Positions 1-8,000 of a DNA stretch of 8,000 nt are shown here, one piece after another. Position numbers and translations under genes: made by a program. Location of the stretch: NCBI GenBank assembly GCA_000004985.1, contig GG739097.1. The stretch is one strand, 5' to 3'. Below the pieces are notes generated by a model. The model worked only from the letters and a program-made list of their open reading frames with translations. It had not been told where the DNA came from and did no database searches. The number at the start of each line of letters is the position of its first letter. Position 1 is the stretch's first letter. The DNA comes from Naegleria gruberi (taxonomy: Eukaryota).

Positions 1-1
1 T

Positions 2-849
2 GATAAGAAAGAGTTTGAAATTAACTTCTTAAAGTTAAAGACAAAGGCTAAAAATTTAAATCCGTCTAGAAGTTCCTTTGTTGGTGTTAGAAGAGGCACT
101 ATTGATTTTGACTCATCAGATTCCCTCTTTACAGGAAAGAAAACAAGTGAAACACTCTCTGAAAGCGAGAAATTTAATTTGGATTCAGATTCGGATTCAG
201 ATTCAGATAATGATCAAGCTGGTTCACAAATTTCCAAATCTTCTACAAAATCAACAAAGGATGATTCCAATATATTGTTGAACAATCCTGCATTCCTCAA
301 ACATTATAATGAGATAGTTGAGGAAAACCTACGCTTAAAAGTTGAACTTGCAAAATACAAACAAGTAGTCAACAAAATGAACGAAATGATGCGGGAAATG
401 GTTCAATGTTTAAATGAAAATCAAGATATCTTCCAATTATCTGATTTGACTATTCAACATGGTGATCAAGTAATAGTCTTAACTCATAAACAAAGGGCTG
501 AAATTTGTGAGCTTTCTGAGAAAACTGCTCAGATCTTACATGTTTGCTCATCAATTTTAAAGAAACCAATAACAGAGCTTGACGGATCAGAAAAGCAATT
601 ATTATTCAAGATTATTTTCGAATGTATGGGCAAAAGTATTGAGAGAAATAAGAGCAAGCTTACCAAGTACAAGAATGTTTTTAGAACAATCAAGAGCAAA
701 GCTAAAGCAAAATTGGAGGGTGAGAATTCAAATAGTGAATCCACTGTAAATGAATTTGAAGAGATACCTAAGAAGAAATCGAAGAAAGGTGATAATGAAT
801 CAAAGAAGAAGAATGAAAAGAACAACAGTAAGAAGAGAGTTAGAGAGGA
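2..849 (+). CDS. Hypothetical Lys/Asp/Ser-rich coiled-coil protein, partial at both ends: it starts upstream of the window and continues into the N block
   Basis: Frame 2 is open from nt 2 to the N boundary, 282 codons with no stop. That is very unlikely by chance in ~65-70% A+T DNA. The first in-frame ATG is near nt 376, far into clearly protein-like sequence, so the true start is upstream of the window. The ORF-track start at 179 is a TTG from a bacterial start table. The translation has an acidic DSDSDSDSDND tract, a heptad-like stretch (EENLRLKVELAKYKQVVNKMNEMMREM) and a basic Lys-rich NLS-like tail (KKKSKKGDNESKKKNEKNNSKKRVRE). Codon usage (AGA, CAA, AAG) is consistent with the other genes here. 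No family assignment is possible from memory. Confidence 0.6.
182..214 (+). repeat. Coding hexanucleotide microsatellite (GATTCR)x4 plus degenerate GATAAT GAT, encoding (Asp-Ser)4-Asp-Asn-Asp
   Basis: Read directly: gattca gattcg gattca gattca gataat gat, in frame with the + strand CDS. Confidence 0.85.
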
Positions 850-3800
850 NNNNNNNNNNNNNNNNNNNNNNNNNNNNNNNNNNNNNNNNNNNNNNNNNNN
901 NNNNNNNNNNNNNNNNNNNNNNNNNNNNNNNNNNNNNNNNNNNNNNNNNNNNNNNNNNNNNNNNNNNNNNNNNNNNNNNNNNNNNNNNNNNNNNNNNNNN
1001 NNNNNNNNNNNNNNNNNNNNNNNNNNNNNNNNNNNNNNNNNNNNNNNNNNNNNNNNNNNNNNNNNNNNNNNNNNNNNNNNNNNNNNNNNNNNNNNNNNNN
1101 NNNNNNNNNNNNNNNNNNNNNNNNNNNNNNNNNNNNNNNNNNNNNNNNNNNNNNNNNNNNNNNNNNNNNNNNNNNNNNNNNNNNNNNNNNNNNNNNNNNN
1201 NNNNNNNNNNNNNNNNNNNNNNNNNNNNNNNNNNNNNNNNNNNNNNNNNNNNNNNNNNNNNNNNNNNNNNNNNNNNNNNNNNNNNNNNNNNNNNNNNNNN
1301 NNNNNNNNNNNNNNNNNNNNNNNNNNNNNNNNNNNNNNNNNNNNNNNNNNNNNNNNNNNNNNNNNNNNNNNNNNNNNNNNNNNNNNNNNNNNNNNNNNNN
1401 NNNNNNNNNNNNNNNNNNNNNNNNNNNNNNNNNNNNNNNNNNNNNNNNNNNNNNNNNNNNNNNNNNNNNNNNNNNNNNNNNNNNNNNNNNNNNNNNNNNN
1501 NNNNNNNNNNNNNNNNNNNNNNNNNNNNNNNNNNNNNNNNNNNNNNNNNNNNNNNNNNNNNNNNNNNNNNNNNNNNNNNNNNNNNNNNNNNNNNNNNNNN
1601 NNNNNNNNNNNNNNNNNNNNNNNNNNNNNNNNNNNNNNNNNNNNNNNNNNNNNNNNNNNNNNNNNNNNNNNNNNNNNNNNNNNNNNNNNNNNNNNNNNNN
1701 NNNNNNNNNNNNNNNNNNNNNNNNNNNNNNNNNNNNNNNNNNNNNNNNNNNNNNNNNNNNNNNNNNNNNNNNNNNNNNNNNNNNNNNNNNNNNNNNNNNN
1801 NNNNNNNNNNNNNNNNNNNNNNNNNNNNNNNNNNNNNNNNNNNNNNNNNNNNNNNNNNNNNNNNNNNNNNNNNNNNNNNNNNNNNNNNNNNNNNNNNNNN
1901 NNNNNNNNNNNNNNNNNNNNNNNNNNNNNNNNNNNNNNNNNNNNNNNNNNNNNNNNNNNNNNNNNNNNNNNNNNNNNNNNNNNNNNNNNNNNNNNNNNNN
2001 NNNNNNNNNNNNNNNNNNNNNNNNNNNNNNNNNNNNNNNNNNNNNNNNNNNNNNNNNNNNNNNNNNNNNNNNNNNNNNNNNNNNNNNNNNNNNNNNNNNN
2101 NNNNNNNNNNNNNNNNNNNNNNNNNNNNNNNNNNNNNNNNNNNNNNNNNNNNNNNNNNNNNNNNNNNNNNNNNNNNNNNNNNNNNNNNNNNNNNNNNNNN
2201 NNNNNNNNNNNNNNNNNNNNNNNNNNNNNNNNNNNNNNNNNNNNNNNNNNNNNNNNNNNNNNNNNNNNNNNNNNNNNNNNNNNNNNNNNNNNNNNNNNNN
2301 NNNNNNNNNNNNNNNNNNNNNNNNNNNNNNNNNNNNNNNNNNNNNNNNNNNNNNNNNNNNNNNNNNNNNNNNNNNNNNNNNNNNNNNNNNNNNNNNNNNN
2401 NNNNNNNNNNNNNNNNNNNNNNNNNNNNNNNNNNNNNNNNNNNNNNNNNNNNNNNNNNNNNNNNNNNNNNNNNNNNNNNNNNNNNNNNNNNNNNNNNNNN
2501 NNNNNNNNNNNNNNNNNNNNNNNNNNNNNNNNNNNNNNNNNNNNNNNNNNNNNNNNNNNNNNNNNNNNNNNNNNNNNNNNNNNNNNNNNNNNNNNNNNNN
2601 NNNNNNNNNNNNNNNNNNNNNNNNNNNNNNNNNNNNNNNNNNNNNNNNNNNNNNNNNNNNNNNNNNNNNNNNNNNNNNNNNNNNNNNNNNNNNNNNNNNN
2701 NNNNNNNNNNNNNNNNNNNNNNNNNNNNNNNNNNNNNNNNNNNNNNNNNNNNNNNNNNNNNNNNNNNNNNNNNNNNNNNNNNNNNNNNNNNNNNNNNNNN
2801 NNNNNNNNNNNNNNNNNNNNNNNNNNNNNNNNNNNNNNNNNNNNNNNNNNNNNNNNNNNNNNNNNNNNNNNNNNNNNNNNNNNNNNNNNNNNNNNNNNNN
2901 NNNNNNNNNNNNNNNNNNNNNNNNNNNNNNNNNNNNNNNNNNNNNNNNNNNNNNNNNNNNNNNNNNNNNNNNNNNNNNNNNNNNNNNNNNNNNNNNNNNN
3001 NNNNNNNNNNNNNNNNNNNNNNNNNNNNNNNNNNNNNNNNNNNNNNNNNNNNNNNNNNNNNNNNNNNNNNNNNNNNNNNNNNNNNNNNNNNNNNNNNNNN
3101 NNNNNNNNNNNNNNNNNNNNNNNNNNNNNNNNNNNNNNNNNNNNNNNNNNNNNNNNNNNNNNNNNNNNNNNNNNNNNNNNNNNNNNNNNNNNNNNNNNNN
3201 NNNNNNNNNNNNNNNNNNNNNNNNNNNNNNNNNNNNNNNNNNNNNNNNNNNNNNNNNNNNNNNNNNNNNNNNNNNNNNNNNNNNNNNNNNNNNNNNNNNN
3301 NNNNNNNNNNNNNNNNNNNNNNNNNNNNNNNNNNNNNNNNNNNNNNNNNNNNNNNNNNNNNNNNNNNNNNNNNNNNNNNNNNNNNNNNNNNNNNNNNNNN
3401 NNNNNNNNNNNNNNNNNNNNNNNNNNNNNNNNNNNNNNNNNNNNNNNNNNNNNNNNNNNNNNNNNNNNNNNNNNNNNNNNNNNNNNNNNNNNNNNNNNNN
3501 NNNNNNNNNNNNNNNNNNNNNNNNNNNNNNNNNNNNNNNNNNNNNNNNNNNNNNNNNNNNNNNNNNNNNNNNNNNNNNNNNNNNNNNNNNNNNNNNNNNN
3601 NNNNNNNNNNNNNNNNNNNNNNNNNNNNNNNNNNNNNNNNNNNNNNNNNNNNNNNNNNNNNNNNNNNNNNNNNNNNNNNNNNNNNNNNNNNNNNNNNNNN
3701 NNNNNNNNNNNNNNNNNNNNNNNNNNNNNNNNNNNNNNNNNNNNNNNNNNNNNNNNNNNNNNNNNNNNNNNNNNNNNNNNNNNNNNNNNNNNNNNNNNNN

Positions 3801-6433
3801 NNNNNNNNNNNNNNNNNNNNNNNNNNNNNNNNNNNNNNNNNNNNNNNNNNNNNNNNNNNNNNNNNNNNNNNNNNNNNNNNNNNNNNNNNNNNNNNNNNNN
3901 NNNNNNNNNNNNNNNNNNNNNNNNNNNNNNNNNNNNNNNNNNNNNNNNNNNNNNNNNNNNNNNNNNNNNNNNNNNNNNNNNNNNNNNNNNNNNNNNNNNN
4001 NNNNNNNNNNNNNNNNNNNNNNNNNNNNNNNNNNNNNNNNNNNNNNNNNNNNNNNNNNNNNNNNNNNNNNNNNNNNNNNNNNNNNNNNNNNNNNNNNNNN
4101 NNNNNNNNNNNNNNNNNNNNNNNNNNNNNNNNNNNNNNNNNNNNNNNNNNNNNNNNNNNNNNNNNNNNNNNNNNNNNNNNNNNNNNNNNNNNNNNNNNNN
4201 NNNNNNNNNNNNNNNNNNNNNNNNNNNNNNNNNNNNNNNNNNNNNNNNNNNNNNNNNNNNNNNNNNNNNNNNNNNNNNNNNNNNNNNNNNNNNNNNNNNN
4301 NNNNNNNNNNNNNNNNNNNNNNNNNNNNNNNNNNNNNNNNNNNNNNNNNNNNNNNNNNNNNNNNNNNNNNNNNNNNNNNNNNNNNNNNNNNNNNNNNNNN
4401 NNNNNNNNNNNNNNNNNNNNNNNNNNNNNNNNNNNNNNNNNNNNNNNNNNNNNNNNNNNNNNNNNNNNNNNNNNNNNNNNNNNNNNNNNNNNNNNNNNNN
4501 NNNNNNNNNNNNNNNNNNNNNNNNNNNNNNNNNNNNNNNNNNNNNNNNNNNNNNNNNNNNNNNNNNNNNNNNNNNNNNNNNNNNNNNNNNNNNNNNNNNN
4601 NNNNNNNNNNNNNNNNNNNNNNNNNNNNNNNNNNNNNNNNNNNNNNNNNNNNNNNNNNNNNNNNNNNNNNNNNNNNNNNNNNNNNNNNNNNNNNNNNNNN
4701 NNNNNNNNNNNNNNNNNNNNNNNNNNNNNNNNNNNNNNNNNNNNNNNNNNNNNNNNNNNNNNNNNNNNNNNNNNNNNNNNNNNNNNNNNNNNNNNNNNNN
4801 NNNNNNNNNNNNNNNNNNNNNNNNNNNNNNNNNNNNNNNNNNNNNNNNNNNNNNNNNNNNNNNNNNNNNNNNNNNNNNNNNNNNNNNNNNNNNNNNNNNN
4901 NNNNNNNNNNNNNNNNNNNNNNNNNNNNNNNNNNNNNNNNNNNNNNNNNNNNNNNNNNNNNNNNNNNNNNNNNNNNNNNNNNNNNNNNNNNNNNNNNNNN
5001 NNNNNNNNNNNNNNNNNNNNNNNNNNNNNNNNNNNNNNNNNNNNNNNNNNNNNNNNNNNNNNNNNNNNNNNNNNNNNNNNNNNNNNNNNNNNNNNNNNNN
5101 NNNNNNNNNNNNNNNNNNNNNNNNNNNNNNNNNNNNNNNNNNNNNNNNNNNNNNNNNNNNNNNNNNNNNNNNNNNNNNNNNNNNNNNNNNNNNNNNNNNN
5201 NNNNNNNNNNNNNNNNNNNNNNNNNNNNNNNNNNNNNNNNNNNNNNNNNNNNNNNNNNNNNNNNNNNNNNNNNNNNNNNNNNNNNNNNNNNNNNNNNNNN
5301 NNNNNNNNNNNNNNNNNNNNNNNNNNNNNNNNNNNNNNNNNNNNNNNNNNNNNNNNNNNNNNNNNNNNNNNNNNNNNNNNNNNNNNNNNNNNNNNNNNNN
5401 NNNNNNNNNNNNNNNNNNNNNNNNNNNNNNNNNNNNNNNNNNNNNNNNNNNNNNNNNNNNNNNNNNNNNNNNNNNNNNNNNNNNNNNNNNNNNNNNNNNN
5501 NNNNNNNNNNNNNNNNNNNNNNNNNNNNNNNNNNNNNNNNNNNNNNNNNNNNNNNNNNNNNNNNNNNNNNNNNNNNNNNNNNNNNNNNNNNNNNNNNNNN
5601 NNNNNNNNNNNNNNNNNNNNNNNNNNNNNNNNNNNNNNNNNNNNNNNNNNNNNNNNNNNNNNNNNNNNNNNNNNNNNNNNNNNNNNNNNNNNNNNNNNNN
5701 NNNNNNNNNNNNNNNNNNNNNNNNNNNNNNNNNNNNNNNNNNNNNNNNNNNNNNNNNNNNNNNNNNNNNNNNNNNNNNNNNNNNNNNNNNNNNNNNNNNN
5801 NNNNNNNNNNNNNNNNNNNNNNNNNNNNNNNNNNNNNNNNNNNNNNNNNNNNNNNNNNNNNNNNNNNNNNNNNNNNNNNNNNNNNNNNNNNNNNNNNNNN
5901 NNNNNNNNNNNNNNNNNNNNNNNNNNNNNNNNNNNNNNNNNNNNNNNNNNNNNNNNNNNNNNNNNNNNNNNNNNNNNNNNNNNNNNNNNNNNNNNNNNNN
6001 NNNNNNNNNNNNNNNNNNNNNNNNNNNNNNNNNNNNNNNNNNNNNNNNNNNNNNNNNNNNNNNNNNNNNNNNNNNNNNNNNNNNNNNNNNNNNNNNNNNN
6101 NNNNNNNNNNNNNNNNNNNNNNNNNNNNNNNNNNNNNNNNNNNNNNNNNNNNNNNNNNNNNNNNNNNNNNNNNNNNNNNNNNNNNNNNNNNNNNNNNNNN
6201 NNNNNNNNNNNNNNNNNNNNNNNNNNNNNNNNNNNNNNNNNNNNNNNNNNNNNNNNNNNNNNNNNNNNNNNNNNNNNNNNNNNNNNNNNNNNNNNNNNNN
6301 NNNNNNNNNNNNNNNNNNNNNNNNNNNNNNNNNNNNNNNNNNNNNNNNNNNNNNNNNNNNNNNNNNNNNNNNNNNNNNNNNNNNNNNNNNNNNNNNNNNN
6401 NNNNNNNNNNNNNNNNNNNNNNNNNNNNNNNNN
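850..6433. other. Masked or unsequenced block: 5,584 consecutive N
   Basis: Direct observation. N begins mid-codon at 850 and ends at 6433. The length is not a round number. Confidence 1.
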
Positions 6434-7374
6434 CATTCAGTAATCTTGAGATATGTAAGATTCTTACAATTTCCATTTGATAAAGAAGTATCAGTAATTT
6501 GGTAGTTTCTAATGTCCAAATATTCCAAGTTGGGCTTATTTTTCAATACTTCATTCTGAAATTCGTTACCTCTGTAACCGTATGTATGAGATGTTAAATG
6601 AGTAATTTGTTTCAAATATTTGGTACCCAAGCATGACCCAATTCCATCAAAATTATATGATACATCTAACTTCTTAACGGTTGACATAAACGCACTTCCA
6701 AATAATGCATCTGCTTCCGTTTTTTTAAACTTTTGCAGTTGCCTTAAGCTCAGTTCAGTTAAGTTTGGCATTTGACATTTCGTTAAATGCTTTACGGATG
6801 ATAGAATCAAATTATTACCAGAAATATCTAATGTGTGCAATTTATCCCATCTGATACCTTTTCTTGAAAGTGATTGAAATGAGCTAACAAGAGCACCAGA
6901 CAATTTCAAAGAAGTGACATTCTTAATTTGTGGACTTTTTACCAAAAGCTCAACATTCTTGGAAGCATTCACTTGTATTTCAACCCTGTCCACAACATCT
7001 TTCCACAATTTTGAAACATATCTACAATAAGCGAGATCATTAACATTCAAGAATTGGAAAATACTAAATAAATTGTCAGAATTCAAACGAGTGGACGAAA
7101 CTTTTTTTCTATGAATATCCACTTGTTTTAAAAACTCGTAAATATTTCCAACAAATTCATCAATTATTTCGCTATTGTACACAAAATAACGACTATCAAC
7201 AAGTTTCACCTTATTTGCCAATGAAATTAATTGTGAATTAACAGTCGTCATTTCTTCAAATAACACCGATTCAATATTTTCATCATCAAACATTTTTCCA
7301 TCATGACCATCGTGATGATCAGCAGCCGAAGGCTGTGATGATTCGTGCTTTCTCTTCTTTGTGTTGTTGGTCAT
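6434..7374 (-). CDS. F-box / leucine-rich-repeat protein (putative SCF ubiquitin-ligase substrate adaptor), N-terminal 313 aa; the 3' end is hidden in the N block
   Basis: The - strand ORF starts at ATG 7374-7372, preceded on the coding strand by A10 (plus-strand T run 7375-7384). An in-frame TAA lies 8 codons upstream (7396-7398 plus), so this is the first possible ATG. Residues ~97-135 (nt ~6970-7086) read LNSDNLFSIFQFLNVNDLAYCRYVSKLWKDVVDRV, which fits the F-box consensus (L..I...L....L.....VSK.W...V). Downstream are repeated LxxLxLxxN-type LRR units (NVTSLKLSG, KLHTLDISGNNL, MPNLTELSLRQL, VKKLDVSYN, NLEYLDIRNYQITD, CKNLTYLKITE). The N-terminus has a KKRKH basic patch and a His/Asp-rich stretch (DHHDGHDG). 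941 nt are open with no stop. Confidence 0.75.
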
Positions 7375-7480
7375 TTTTTTTTTTAAGTTTTTAATTAATA
7401 AAATTTTAAATATATTGCTTAATATTATTTAAATTGTGTAAATTAGTGAAATATTGAATGTTCAGTTTAGTAATTTGTAT
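7375..7480 (-). promoter_or_regulatory. 106-nt intergenic spacer between tandem - strand genes. It must hold the 3'-end formation signals of the SPRY gene and the core promoter/5' UTR of the F-box gene.
   Basis: ~88% A+T by my count (13 G/C in 106 nt). Reading the - strand after the SPRY stop: ATACAAATTACTAAACTGAACATTCAATATTTCACTAATTTACACAATTTAAATAATATTAAGCAATATATTTAAAATTTTATTAATTAAAAACTTAAAAAAAAAA-ATG. It contains ATATAT and AATAAT-like elements resembling yeast efficiency/positioning elements, a TATA-like ATATATTTAAAA about 40 nt upstream of the ATG, and an A10 pre-ATG tract. These are motif-level observations only. Confidence 0.4.
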
Positions 7481-7899
7481 TTAGTTGTATTGATGTTTTG
7501 CAGGTGATGCCATTCGAATAGGAGCATCTGGATTCAATTGATAATCTGTTTGTAAGAGTGGATACAGTGTAATTGTCTTTCTGGTACACATTGAAATAAT
7601 TGGGAAATACATGACAGATTGTGAGACTAAATCCTGAGTTCCAGTAATTGCTGATGCAATGTGAATTCCATTCTTGAAAAAGTTGACCTGTTTGGCATCG
7701 TAATCTATAATGACAGCAAATCGATCACCAACAGAGATCTTTCCAACAAATTCAGAACCTACAGTTCCATCAATAAAATCGCCAAACATTTTGAATGATT
7801 TGTTTTCGAGAATGTAACCAACTCCAGAGTTTCTTTCAACGAATTGAGCTATGGATTTGTCATTATTGAAATCTTCATAATCAGTTCCAATACCAAATG
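7481..7899 (-). CDS. SPRY/B30.2-domain protein, terminal coding exon (stop TAA at 7483-7481)
   Basis: The - strand frame is open from 7927 down to the TAA at 7483-7481. The translation is FGIGTDYEDFNNDKSIAQFVERNSGVGYILENKSFKMFGDFIDGTVGSEFVGKISVGDRFAVIIDYDAKQVNFFKNGIHIASAITGTQDLVSQSVMYFPIISMCTRKTITLYPLLQTDYQLNPDAPIRMASPAKHQYN. It matches the SPRY core pattern (vGwat...sGvgY...G.....f..GDviGvglDle.gtlsFtkNG..lg.aF.......lyPavsl.....v.lnf). The ORF-track entry 7481..7789 is only the part after an internal Met. An in-frame TGA at 7930-7928 (minus-strand order) lies upstream, so the exon is entered by splicing. Acceptor AG is at 7901-7900. Confidence 0.65.
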
Positions 7900-7965
7900 C
7901 TATTGTTAATTGATGGAGGTCAATTTGTCAATATTTCAAATATAGTAAATTTCCAATATACTTAC
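7900..7965 (-). other. Putative 66-nt spliceosomal intron in the SPRY gene (GTAAGT...TAG)
   Basis: - strand sequence: GTAAGTATATTGGAAATTTACTATATTTGAAATATTGACAAATTGACCTCCATCAATTAACAATAG. It has a canonical GTAAGT donor, a TAG acceptor and a TTAAC branch-like element 7 nt before AG. Removing it joins ...RYFLCGMHGMLA to FGIGTDYEDF... in frame: phase 1, with G from exon 1 plus CA from exon 2 giving Ala. RYF...G resembles the start of the SPRY core (G+hYfEv), so the domain runs across the junction. Confidence 0.5.
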
Positions 7966-8000
7966 CAACATTCCATGCATTCCACACAAGAAATATCTCA
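7966..8000 (-). CDS. Upstream exon fragment of the SPRY-domain gene; it continues beyond the window edge
   Basis: Only one - strand frame is open and also phase-compatible with the 7899 acceptor. It reads ...R Y F L C G M H G M L (A). The other frames are out of phase (frame with EIFLVWNAWNVG) or begin with TGA. This call depends on the intron call. Confidence 0.4.

What the first reader, a model, noticed from the sequence alone, without database searches (positions are those of the whole stretch)
850..6433. 5.6-kb masked block swallowing the 3' ends of two convergent genes
The N run is 5,584 nt, a non-round length, so it looks like deliberately masked or unresolved sequence and not a conventional fixed-size scaffold gap. 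The + strand Lys/Ser-rich gene enters it from the left, and the - strand F-box/LRR gene enters it from the right. F-box/LRR proteins are usually at least 500 aa, so about 0.6 kb or more of that gene is missing. Even after completing both genes, several kb would typically remain unaccounted for, enough for further gene(s), a repeat or a mobile element. Whatever is unusual about this locus most likely lies here, and it cannot be evaluated from this window.
Basis: partly seen in the sequence, partly recalled or inferred. Interest (0 to 1): 0.5.

Follow-up and report, generated by a model that had tools for sequence, protein, structure and literature searches.

The report
Sized assembly gap in Naegleria mini-scaffold
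The 5,584 Ns are an ordinary unsequenced gap in a tiny two-piece scaffold of the Naegleria gruberi draft genome, with a length that looks nominal rather than measured, so there is nothing biological to evaluate and no sign that anything unusual is hidden.

Summary
There is one N run at exactly 850-6433 (5,584 nt), and two convergent open reading frames are cut off by it.

The window is Naegleria gruberi NEG-M DNA and appears to be a whole deposited scaffold. The left gene's GenBank protein (NAEGRDRAFT_54818, "partial") is recorded on a single 8,000-nt contig. That protein is reproduced exactly by window 137-827 joined to 7504-7538. This implies a predicted 6,676-nt GT..AG "intron" that jumps the whole N run and the F-box gene, so the Ns were already there when the record was annotated.

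The record is 849 + 5,584 + 1,567 = 8,000 nt. The "non-round" gap is therefore a round 8-kb span minus two read-scale contigs. This fits a single ~8-kb clone mate pair (inferred).

A 99%-identical complete copy of the F-box/LRR protein (NAEGRDRAFT_53913, 515 aa) sits on a 207-kb scaffold. It shows that 607 nt of that gene are missing here. The left gene runs at least about 20 codons further.

The remainder, nominally up to about 4.9 kb, is unknown. It has room for one or two ordinary genes in this gene-dense genome. The underlying DNA could not be reached with the tools. Verdict: assembly artefact, low interest.

The parts
1..849 (+). Contig 1 of the scaffold (read-sized, 849 nt). It carries one open frame, 2-849, for a Lys/Ser/Glu-rich protein with no Pfam domain. 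Positions 137-827 are exon 1 of the GenBank model NAEGRDRAFT_54818 (partial).
   Evidence: Short homologous fragments from related organisms (31-62% identity) show it is a real conserved gene.
850..6433 (.). Scaffold gap of 5,584 N: unsequenced DNA with a length that is estimated or nominal, not masked sequence.
   Evidence: pure N. (record length 8,000). (the annotated gene model jumps the gap). No 100%-identical F-box protein was annotated from this record.
5827..6433 (-). Inferred, not seen: the nominal position of the missing 3' end of the F-box/LRR gene (202 codons plus stop, minus the 2 visible nt, giving 607 nt).
   Evidence: The family is about 480-550 aa, and it is a single uninterrupted ORF in Logan contig L001.
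6434..7374 (-). 5' 941 nt of an F-box/LRR gene (ATG at 7374). It is 310/313 identical to NAEGRDRAFT_53913, and the three differences are all single-nucleotide changes. It is not annotated in this record.
7375..7480 (.). AT-rich 106-nt intergenic spacer between the stop of the SPRY-like gene and the ATG of the F-box gene.
7481..8000 (-). 3' part of an unannotated gene with weak SPRY similarity. The last exon is 7481-7899, a 66-nt GT..AG intron is 7900-7965, and the upstream exon from 7966 is cut by the record end.
   Evidence: (SPRY E 0.0044, below the Pfam cut-off). No homologue found.
7504..7538 (+). Artefactual terminal exon of the GenBank model NAEGRDRAFT_54818. It lies antisense to the SPRY-like exon and is joined to 137-827 across the gap.

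Best explanation
The N run is a genuine sized gap in a very small scaffold of the Sanger-era JGI draft assembly of Naegleria gruberi NEG-M. The window is that entire 8,000-nt scaffold. It consists of an 849-nt contig and a 1,567-nt contig, which is the scale of one and about two Sanger reads. By inference, the two contigs are held together by the two end reads of a single plasmid clone of roughly 8 kb. The assembler would have set the gap to the library's nominal insert size minus the two contig lengths (8,000 - 849 - 1,567 = 5,584). The gap length is therefore a nominal figure with kilobase-scale uncertainty. Real DNA lies between the contigs. It certainly includes the last 607 nt of the F-box/LRR gene and at least about 60 nt more of the left gene. 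The rest is most likely ordinary gene-dense Naegleria sequence. A 99%-identical copy of the F-box gene on a 207-kb scaffold, either the other allele or a recent duplicate, probably explains why reads from this interval were not assembled here. Shown: the organism, the record length, that the gap was present at annotation, and the missing 607 nt. Inferred: the single-clone origin and why assembly failed.
For: The left ORF is 100% identical to GenBank NAEGRDRAFT_54818, 'partial', which is seen on one contig of length 8,000. Other N. gruberi proteins in the same table sit on contigs of 196,593-573,072 nt, so contig lengths there are real record lengths. That protein is reproduced exactly by 137-827 + 7504-7538, a GT..AG 'intron' of 6,676 nt spanning the Ns and a whole gene on the other strand. 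This is a typical gene-model artefact across a gap. The F-box gene of this record was never annotated. Only a 99% copy and more distant paralogues exist in the protein collection, as expected if the gene was truncated in the record. Contig sizes of 849 and 1,567 nt are read-scale, and the total is a round 8,000. At the same centre and period, a JGI genome was built with the JAZZ assembler from 6-10 kb fragments in pMCL200 plus smaller plasmid libraries, and only redundant scaffolds under 5 kb were filtered out (PMC3188802). The N. gruberi NEG-M assembly has 1,977 scaffolds (PMC9928731).
Against: The N. gruberi genome paper (Fritz-Laylin et al. 2010) is not held, so the library sizes and assembler for this genome are not documented here. 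The 8-kb-clone origin is an inference from the round total and from another JGI project. That the three parts add up to 8,000 is trivially true of an 8,000-nt window. The argument rests on the independent contig-length field of the protein collection. The left gene and the SPRY-like gene have no second annotated copy anywhere. This fits poorly with a simple redundant-haplotype scaffold and leaves allele versus paralogue open.
Confidence: 0.85

Rival explanations
1. The Ns are real, known sequence that someone deliberately hard-masked, either as a repeat or mobile element or as sequence withheld by the data provider.
For: The length is not a conventional placeholder such as 100 or 1,000 N. The tool notes say that a few stretches of one prokaryotic collection are masked.
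Against: The run starts and ends inside unique coding sequence of two genes, mid-codon on the right side. The F-box gene of this record was not annotated, although four family members on other scaffolds were. The annotated model NAEGRDRAFT_54818 is 'partial' and bridges the run with a 6.7-kb intron, in a genome whose average gene is 1,677 bp. The record totals a round 8,000 nt.
Confidence: 0.05
2. The gap is real but the join is false. A chimeric clone or a mate pair misplaced by the near-identical F-box copy linked two contigs that are not neighbours, so there is no single interval between them.
For: The scaffold seems to rest on very few reads (contigs of 849 and 1,567 nt). The right contig carries a gene with a 99% copy elsewhere. 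The left gene has no counterpart near any other copy.
Against: The two genes converge and both point into the gap, which is a normal arrangement for a real locus. There is no positive evidence of chimerism. Clone-end links are usually correct.
Confidence: 0.07
3. The gap exists because it hides something hard to clone or assemble, such as a recent segmental duplication including the F-box/LRR gene, a repeat array or a transposable element, rather than merely low coverage.
For: A 99%-identical copy of at least the first 313 codons of the F-box gene lies on a 207-kb scaffold. Both flanking genes appear unique in the proteome, which hints at duplication rather than allelism.
Against: Three single-nucleotide amino-acid differences in 313 codons are equally compatible with allelic variation in an organism reported to be heterozygous (PMC9928731). 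Reported repeat content is only 5.1% (PMC6125883). No repeats are visible at the contig ends.
Confidence: 0.2

Closest known systems
Estimated-size scaffold gaps in Sanger whole-genome-shotgun assemblies (JGI JAZZ and similar), including single-clone mini-scaffolds
   Same: It is a pure N run between read-scale contigs. Its length is not a fixed placeholder, and the scaffold total equals a round library insert size. Gene models are broken or bridged at the gap.
   Different: Nothing differs in kind. What is undocumented here is the exact library and assembler used for N. gruberi, because the genome paper is not held.
Leftover alternative-haplotype or duplicate scaffolds in draft assemblies of heterozygous organisms
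   Same: The right contig's F-box gene is 310/313 identical to NAEGRDRAFT_53913 on a 207-kb scaffold. A scaffold of 8 kb nominal length would escape a '<5 kb redundant' filter like the one used for another JGI genome.
   Different: The left gene and the SPRY-like gene have no second annotated copy, so redundancy is shown only for the F-box segment.
F-box/LRR (FBXL-type) substrate adaptors of SCF ubiquitin ligases
   Same: F-box domain at residues 96-133, followed by leucine-rich repeats.
   Different: This is a Naegleria-specific paralogue family (43-49% identity among members). It has a conserved region of about 95 aa before the F-box with no significant Pfam match. No function has been tested.

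Membership tests
Sized (estimated-length) scaffold gap | Uninterrupted run of N with no other masking in the record | tested here: met
   one run at 850-6433, and no lower case or other IUPAC codes.
Sized (estimated-length) scaffold gap | Ns are present in the deposited, annotated record and were not added later | tested here: met
   The GenBank protein EFC35639.1 equals 137-827 + 7504-7538, bridging the run. The record length is 8,000. The truncated F-box gene is not annotated. This is indirect: the record itself could not be opened.
Sized (estimated-length) scaffold gap | Length derived from the insert size of linking clones | tested here: inconclusive
   849 + 5,584 + 1,567 = 8,000 and the record is 8,000 nt. 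This matches the 6-10 kb pMCL200 libraries used at JGI for another genome. The AGP and read placements are not available.
Fixed-length 'unknown size' gap placeholder (for example 100 N) | A conventional round length that is independent of the flanks | tested here: not met
   5,584 nt.
Hard-masked repeat or mobile element | Mask boundaries coincide with repeat boundaries, and the flanks are non-repeat sequence ending at the element | tested here: not met
   Both boundaries fall inside coding sequence of otherwise unique genes, mid-codon on the right. No terminal repeats occur in the flanks.
F-box/LRR protein (right-hand gene) | F-box domain above the Pfam threshold | tested here: met
   PF00646 scores 30.5 bits against a cut-off of 20.5, and 29.7 bits in P0001.
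F-box/LRR protein (right-hand gene) | Leucine-rich repeats C-terminal to the F-box | tested here: met
   PF12799 LRR_4 scores 34.8 bits against a cut-off of 27.
F-box/LRR protein (right-hand gene) | Binds Skp1 and recruits substrates to an SCF ligase | not testable with these tools
   This needs a biochemical test.
Redundant haplotig of the 207-kb scaffold | All genes on the small scaffold have near-identical counterparts, in the same order, on the large scaffold | tested here: inconclusive
   The F-box gene has one. The left gene and the SPRY-like gene have no annotated counterpart.

The most novel reading that the evidence does not exclude
The interval was left unassembled because it carries a very recent segmental duplication, including the F-box/LRR gene and possibly a mobile or repeated element that mediated it. 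That would document ongoing expansion of this Naegleria-specific F-box/LRR family.
Probability: 0.15. Interest if true: 0.2.

Novelty: not a real feature. Interest (0 to 1): 0.05.

Why it matters
It matters only as housekeeping. The N block is an assembly gap of nominal size, so it should not be counted as a candidate biological feature. It also exposes one wrong GenBank gene model, NAEGRDRAFT_54818, which is spliced across the gap into an antisense exon. Two genes on this scaffold were never annotated: a truncated F-box/LRR gene and a SPRY-like gene. A long-read assembly of N. gruberi would settle all of this at once.

Tried and rejected
1. I tried to fetch the reference DNA around the flanking genes with the look-up of encoding contigs. 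It failed for P0001, P0006 and P0002, which suggests N. gruberi gene positions are not in that index. P0009 was also not on record.

2. I scanned the metagenome contigs with the left ORF and with P0001 to find a syntenic contig from a relative. Neither scan gave a confirmed hit.

3. I searched the 1.84-billion-protein representative library exhaustively with the left ORF, to learn its full length. The search found only the same partial model plus four fragments of 69-115 aa.

4. I read Logan contig L001, which carries the 47%-identical P0003. Its neighbouring genes differ from those in the window, so it is not the orthologous locus.

5. I searched for homologues of the SPRY-like exon, to test synteny with the 207-kb scaffold. 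There were no hits in the protein collection or the PDB.

6. I scanned the flanks for tRNAs, Rfam families and repeats. Nothing turned up.

7. I looked for the N. gruberi genome paper and for a description of JAZZ gap sizing. The paper is not held. Only analogous JGI methods for D. purpureum were found.

Rejected readings:
- Deliberate masking.
- A fixed-size placeholder gap.
Full report
**Observation**

The window holds a single uninterrupted N run at exactly 850-6433 (5,584 nt). It has no other ambiguity codes and no lower-case masking, and the flanks are about 32% G+C.

On the left, frame 2-849 of the + strand is open for all 282 codons. The longest open frame in 500 shuffles was 153 codons. 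The product is Lys/Ser/Glu-rich, with K at 27% in the last 60 residues, and it has no significant Pfam match.

On the right, a - strand gene begins at ATG 7374 and runs 313 codons plus 2 nt into the Ns. It has an F-box (PF00646, E 3e-7) followed by leucine-rich repeats (PF12799, E 2e-8). The description of two convergent genes cut by the block is correct.

**Where the window comes from**

Both flanking proteins identify Naegleria gruberi.

- The left ORF is 100% identical to GenBank "hypothetical protein NAEGRDRAFT_54818, partial" (EFC35639.1 / XP_002668383.1, 242 aa).
- The protein collection records that protein on one contig of length 8,000.
- Other N. gruberi proteins in the same table lie on contigs of 196,593 to 573,072 nt. 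That field therefore holds true record lengths, and the window is evidently the whole deposited scaffold.

**The Ns were already in the annotated record**

The 242-aa GenBank protein ends in ...KNEKNNS-DAIRIGASGFN. It is reproduced exactly by joining window 137-827 to 7504-7538. The join uses a GT donor and an AG acceptor.

The resulting "intron" is 6,676 nt. It spans the entire N run and the whole visible F-box gene, and it lands in an exon antisense to a third gene. In a genome whose average gene is 1,677 bp (PMC9928731), this is a gene-prediction artefact across a gap.

The F-box gene of this scaffold was never annotated. The collection holds four annotated N. gruberi family members of 483-546 aa, all on other scaffolds, but no 100% match to the window's fragment. 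That is what a gene truncated by a real gap would produce.

**Why the length is "non-round"**

The record is 849 + 5,584 + 1,567 = 8,000 nt. The parts of an 8,000-nt window add up to 8,000 trivially. The informative point is that the source record itself is 8,000 nt.

The contigs are on the scale of one and about two Sanger reads. My inference is that a single clone of nominal 8-kb insert supplied the two outermost reads, and the assembler set the gap to the insert size minus the contig lengths.

I could not read the N. gruberi genome paper, which is not held. A contemporaneous JGI genome was built with the JAZZ assembler from 6-10 kb fragments in pMCL200 plus smaller plasmid libraries. In that project, redundant scaffolds were filtered only below 5 kb (PMC3188802). 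A nominally 8-kb leftover scaffold would survive such a filter.

The N. gruberi NEG-M assembly has 1,977 scaffolds. If the 6-10 kb range applied here, the true distance could be about 2 kb shorter or longer than 5,584 nt. The figure is a nominal estimate, not a measurement.

**What can be said about the hidden DNA**

1. *F-box/LRR gene.* The nearest protein is NAEGRDRAFT_53913 (EFC37187.1, UniProt D2W192), 515 aa, on a 207,235-nt scaffold.
   - It is identical at 310 of 313 positions.
   - The three differences (L143F, R289G, T296I) are each one nucleotide change from the window's codons CTT, AGA and ACT.
   - The two dangling bases TG fit its Cys314.
   - A family member on a Logan contig (L001) is a single uninterrupted ORF, so no intron is expected.

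2. *Left gene.* A 115-aa fragment from a relative (P0009) continues 26 residues past the point aligned to the end of the visible ORF. The gene therefore runs at least about 20 codons into the gap, and its full length is unknown.

3. *The remainder.* Nominally up to about 4.9 kb is unknown. At Naegleria gene density this leaves room for the rest of the left gene plus zero to two ordinary genes.

**Allele or duplicate?**

The 99% copy on the 207-kb scaffold could be the other allele. Heterozygosity is reported for N. gruberi (PMC9928731). It could also be a recent duplicate.

Neither the left gene nor the SPRY-like gene has a second annotated copy, which leans slightly towards duplication. Missing annotation is weak evidence, however. 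Either way, a near-identical copy elsewhere plausibly drew reads away from this interval. That inference gives an ordinary reason for the gap.

**Attempts to recover the sequence**

- Reference DNA was unreachable: the look-up of encoding contigs has no N. gruberi gene positions.
- Two metagenome scans found nothing.
- The Logan relative is not the orthologous locus.
- The flanks contain no tRNA, Rfam family or notable repeat.

**Verdict**

The interval is unresolved sequence, and the 0.6 kb of missing F-box gene is correct. It is not masked sequence, and its length is a nominal figure. Nothing indicates an unusual hidden feature.

This is an assembly artefact in a draft-genome leftover scaffold, not a biological feature, and interest is low. 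The least ordinary reading still open is a recent segmental duplication or a mobile element that caused the assembly failure. It has modest probability and modest interest.

Noticed in passing
window 137-827 (+) joined to 7504-7538 (+): The GenBank gene model NAEGRDRAFT_54818 (EFC35639.1) is an artefact. It splices across the 5.6-kb gap and the whole F-box gene with a 6,676-nt 'intron'. Its last 11 codons lie antisense to another gene's exon. The real ORF simply continues past 827 to the contig end at 849.
   Followed up: yes
window 7481-8000 (-): This looks like an unannotated gene. The last exon is 7481-7899, a canonical 66-nt GT..AG intron is 7900-7965, and the upstream exon is cut by the record end. 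It has only a sub-threshold SPRY match (E 0.0044). A word-indexed search of 5.8 billion proteins found no homologue at all, not even in the N. gruberi proteome, and the PDB search also found none.
   Followed up: partly
window 6434-7374 (-): This F-box/LRR gene fragment is absent from the annotation. It differs from NAEGRDRAFT_53913 on a 207-kb scaffold by three single-nucleotide amino-acid changes (codons at 6946-6948, 6508-6510 and 6487-6489). Whether it is the other allele or a recent duplicate is unresolved.
   Followed up: partly
residues 1-95 of the F-box protein (window about 7090-7374, -) and P0002-P0005: The Naegleria F-box/LRR paralogues (43-49% identity) share a well conserved block before the F-box (ESVLF.EMT.VN..L.SLA.KVKLVD.RYF...IDEF.G.I.EFLKQVDIHRKK). 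The block has no significant Pfam match and appears specific to this lineage-expanded family.
   Followed up: no
window 177-210 (+): A short GATTCR hexamer repeat encodes a (Asp-Ser)n run (DSDSDSDSD) in the left gene.
   Followed up: no
L001 (Logan ERR14653892 contig, 2,336 nt): An unnamed sequencing run holds a Naegleria-like F-box/LRR paralogue: 503 aa, a single uninterrupted ORF, 47% identity. A convergent gene ends 82 nt downstream of it. This shows how tightly the family's genes are packed.
   Followed up: partly
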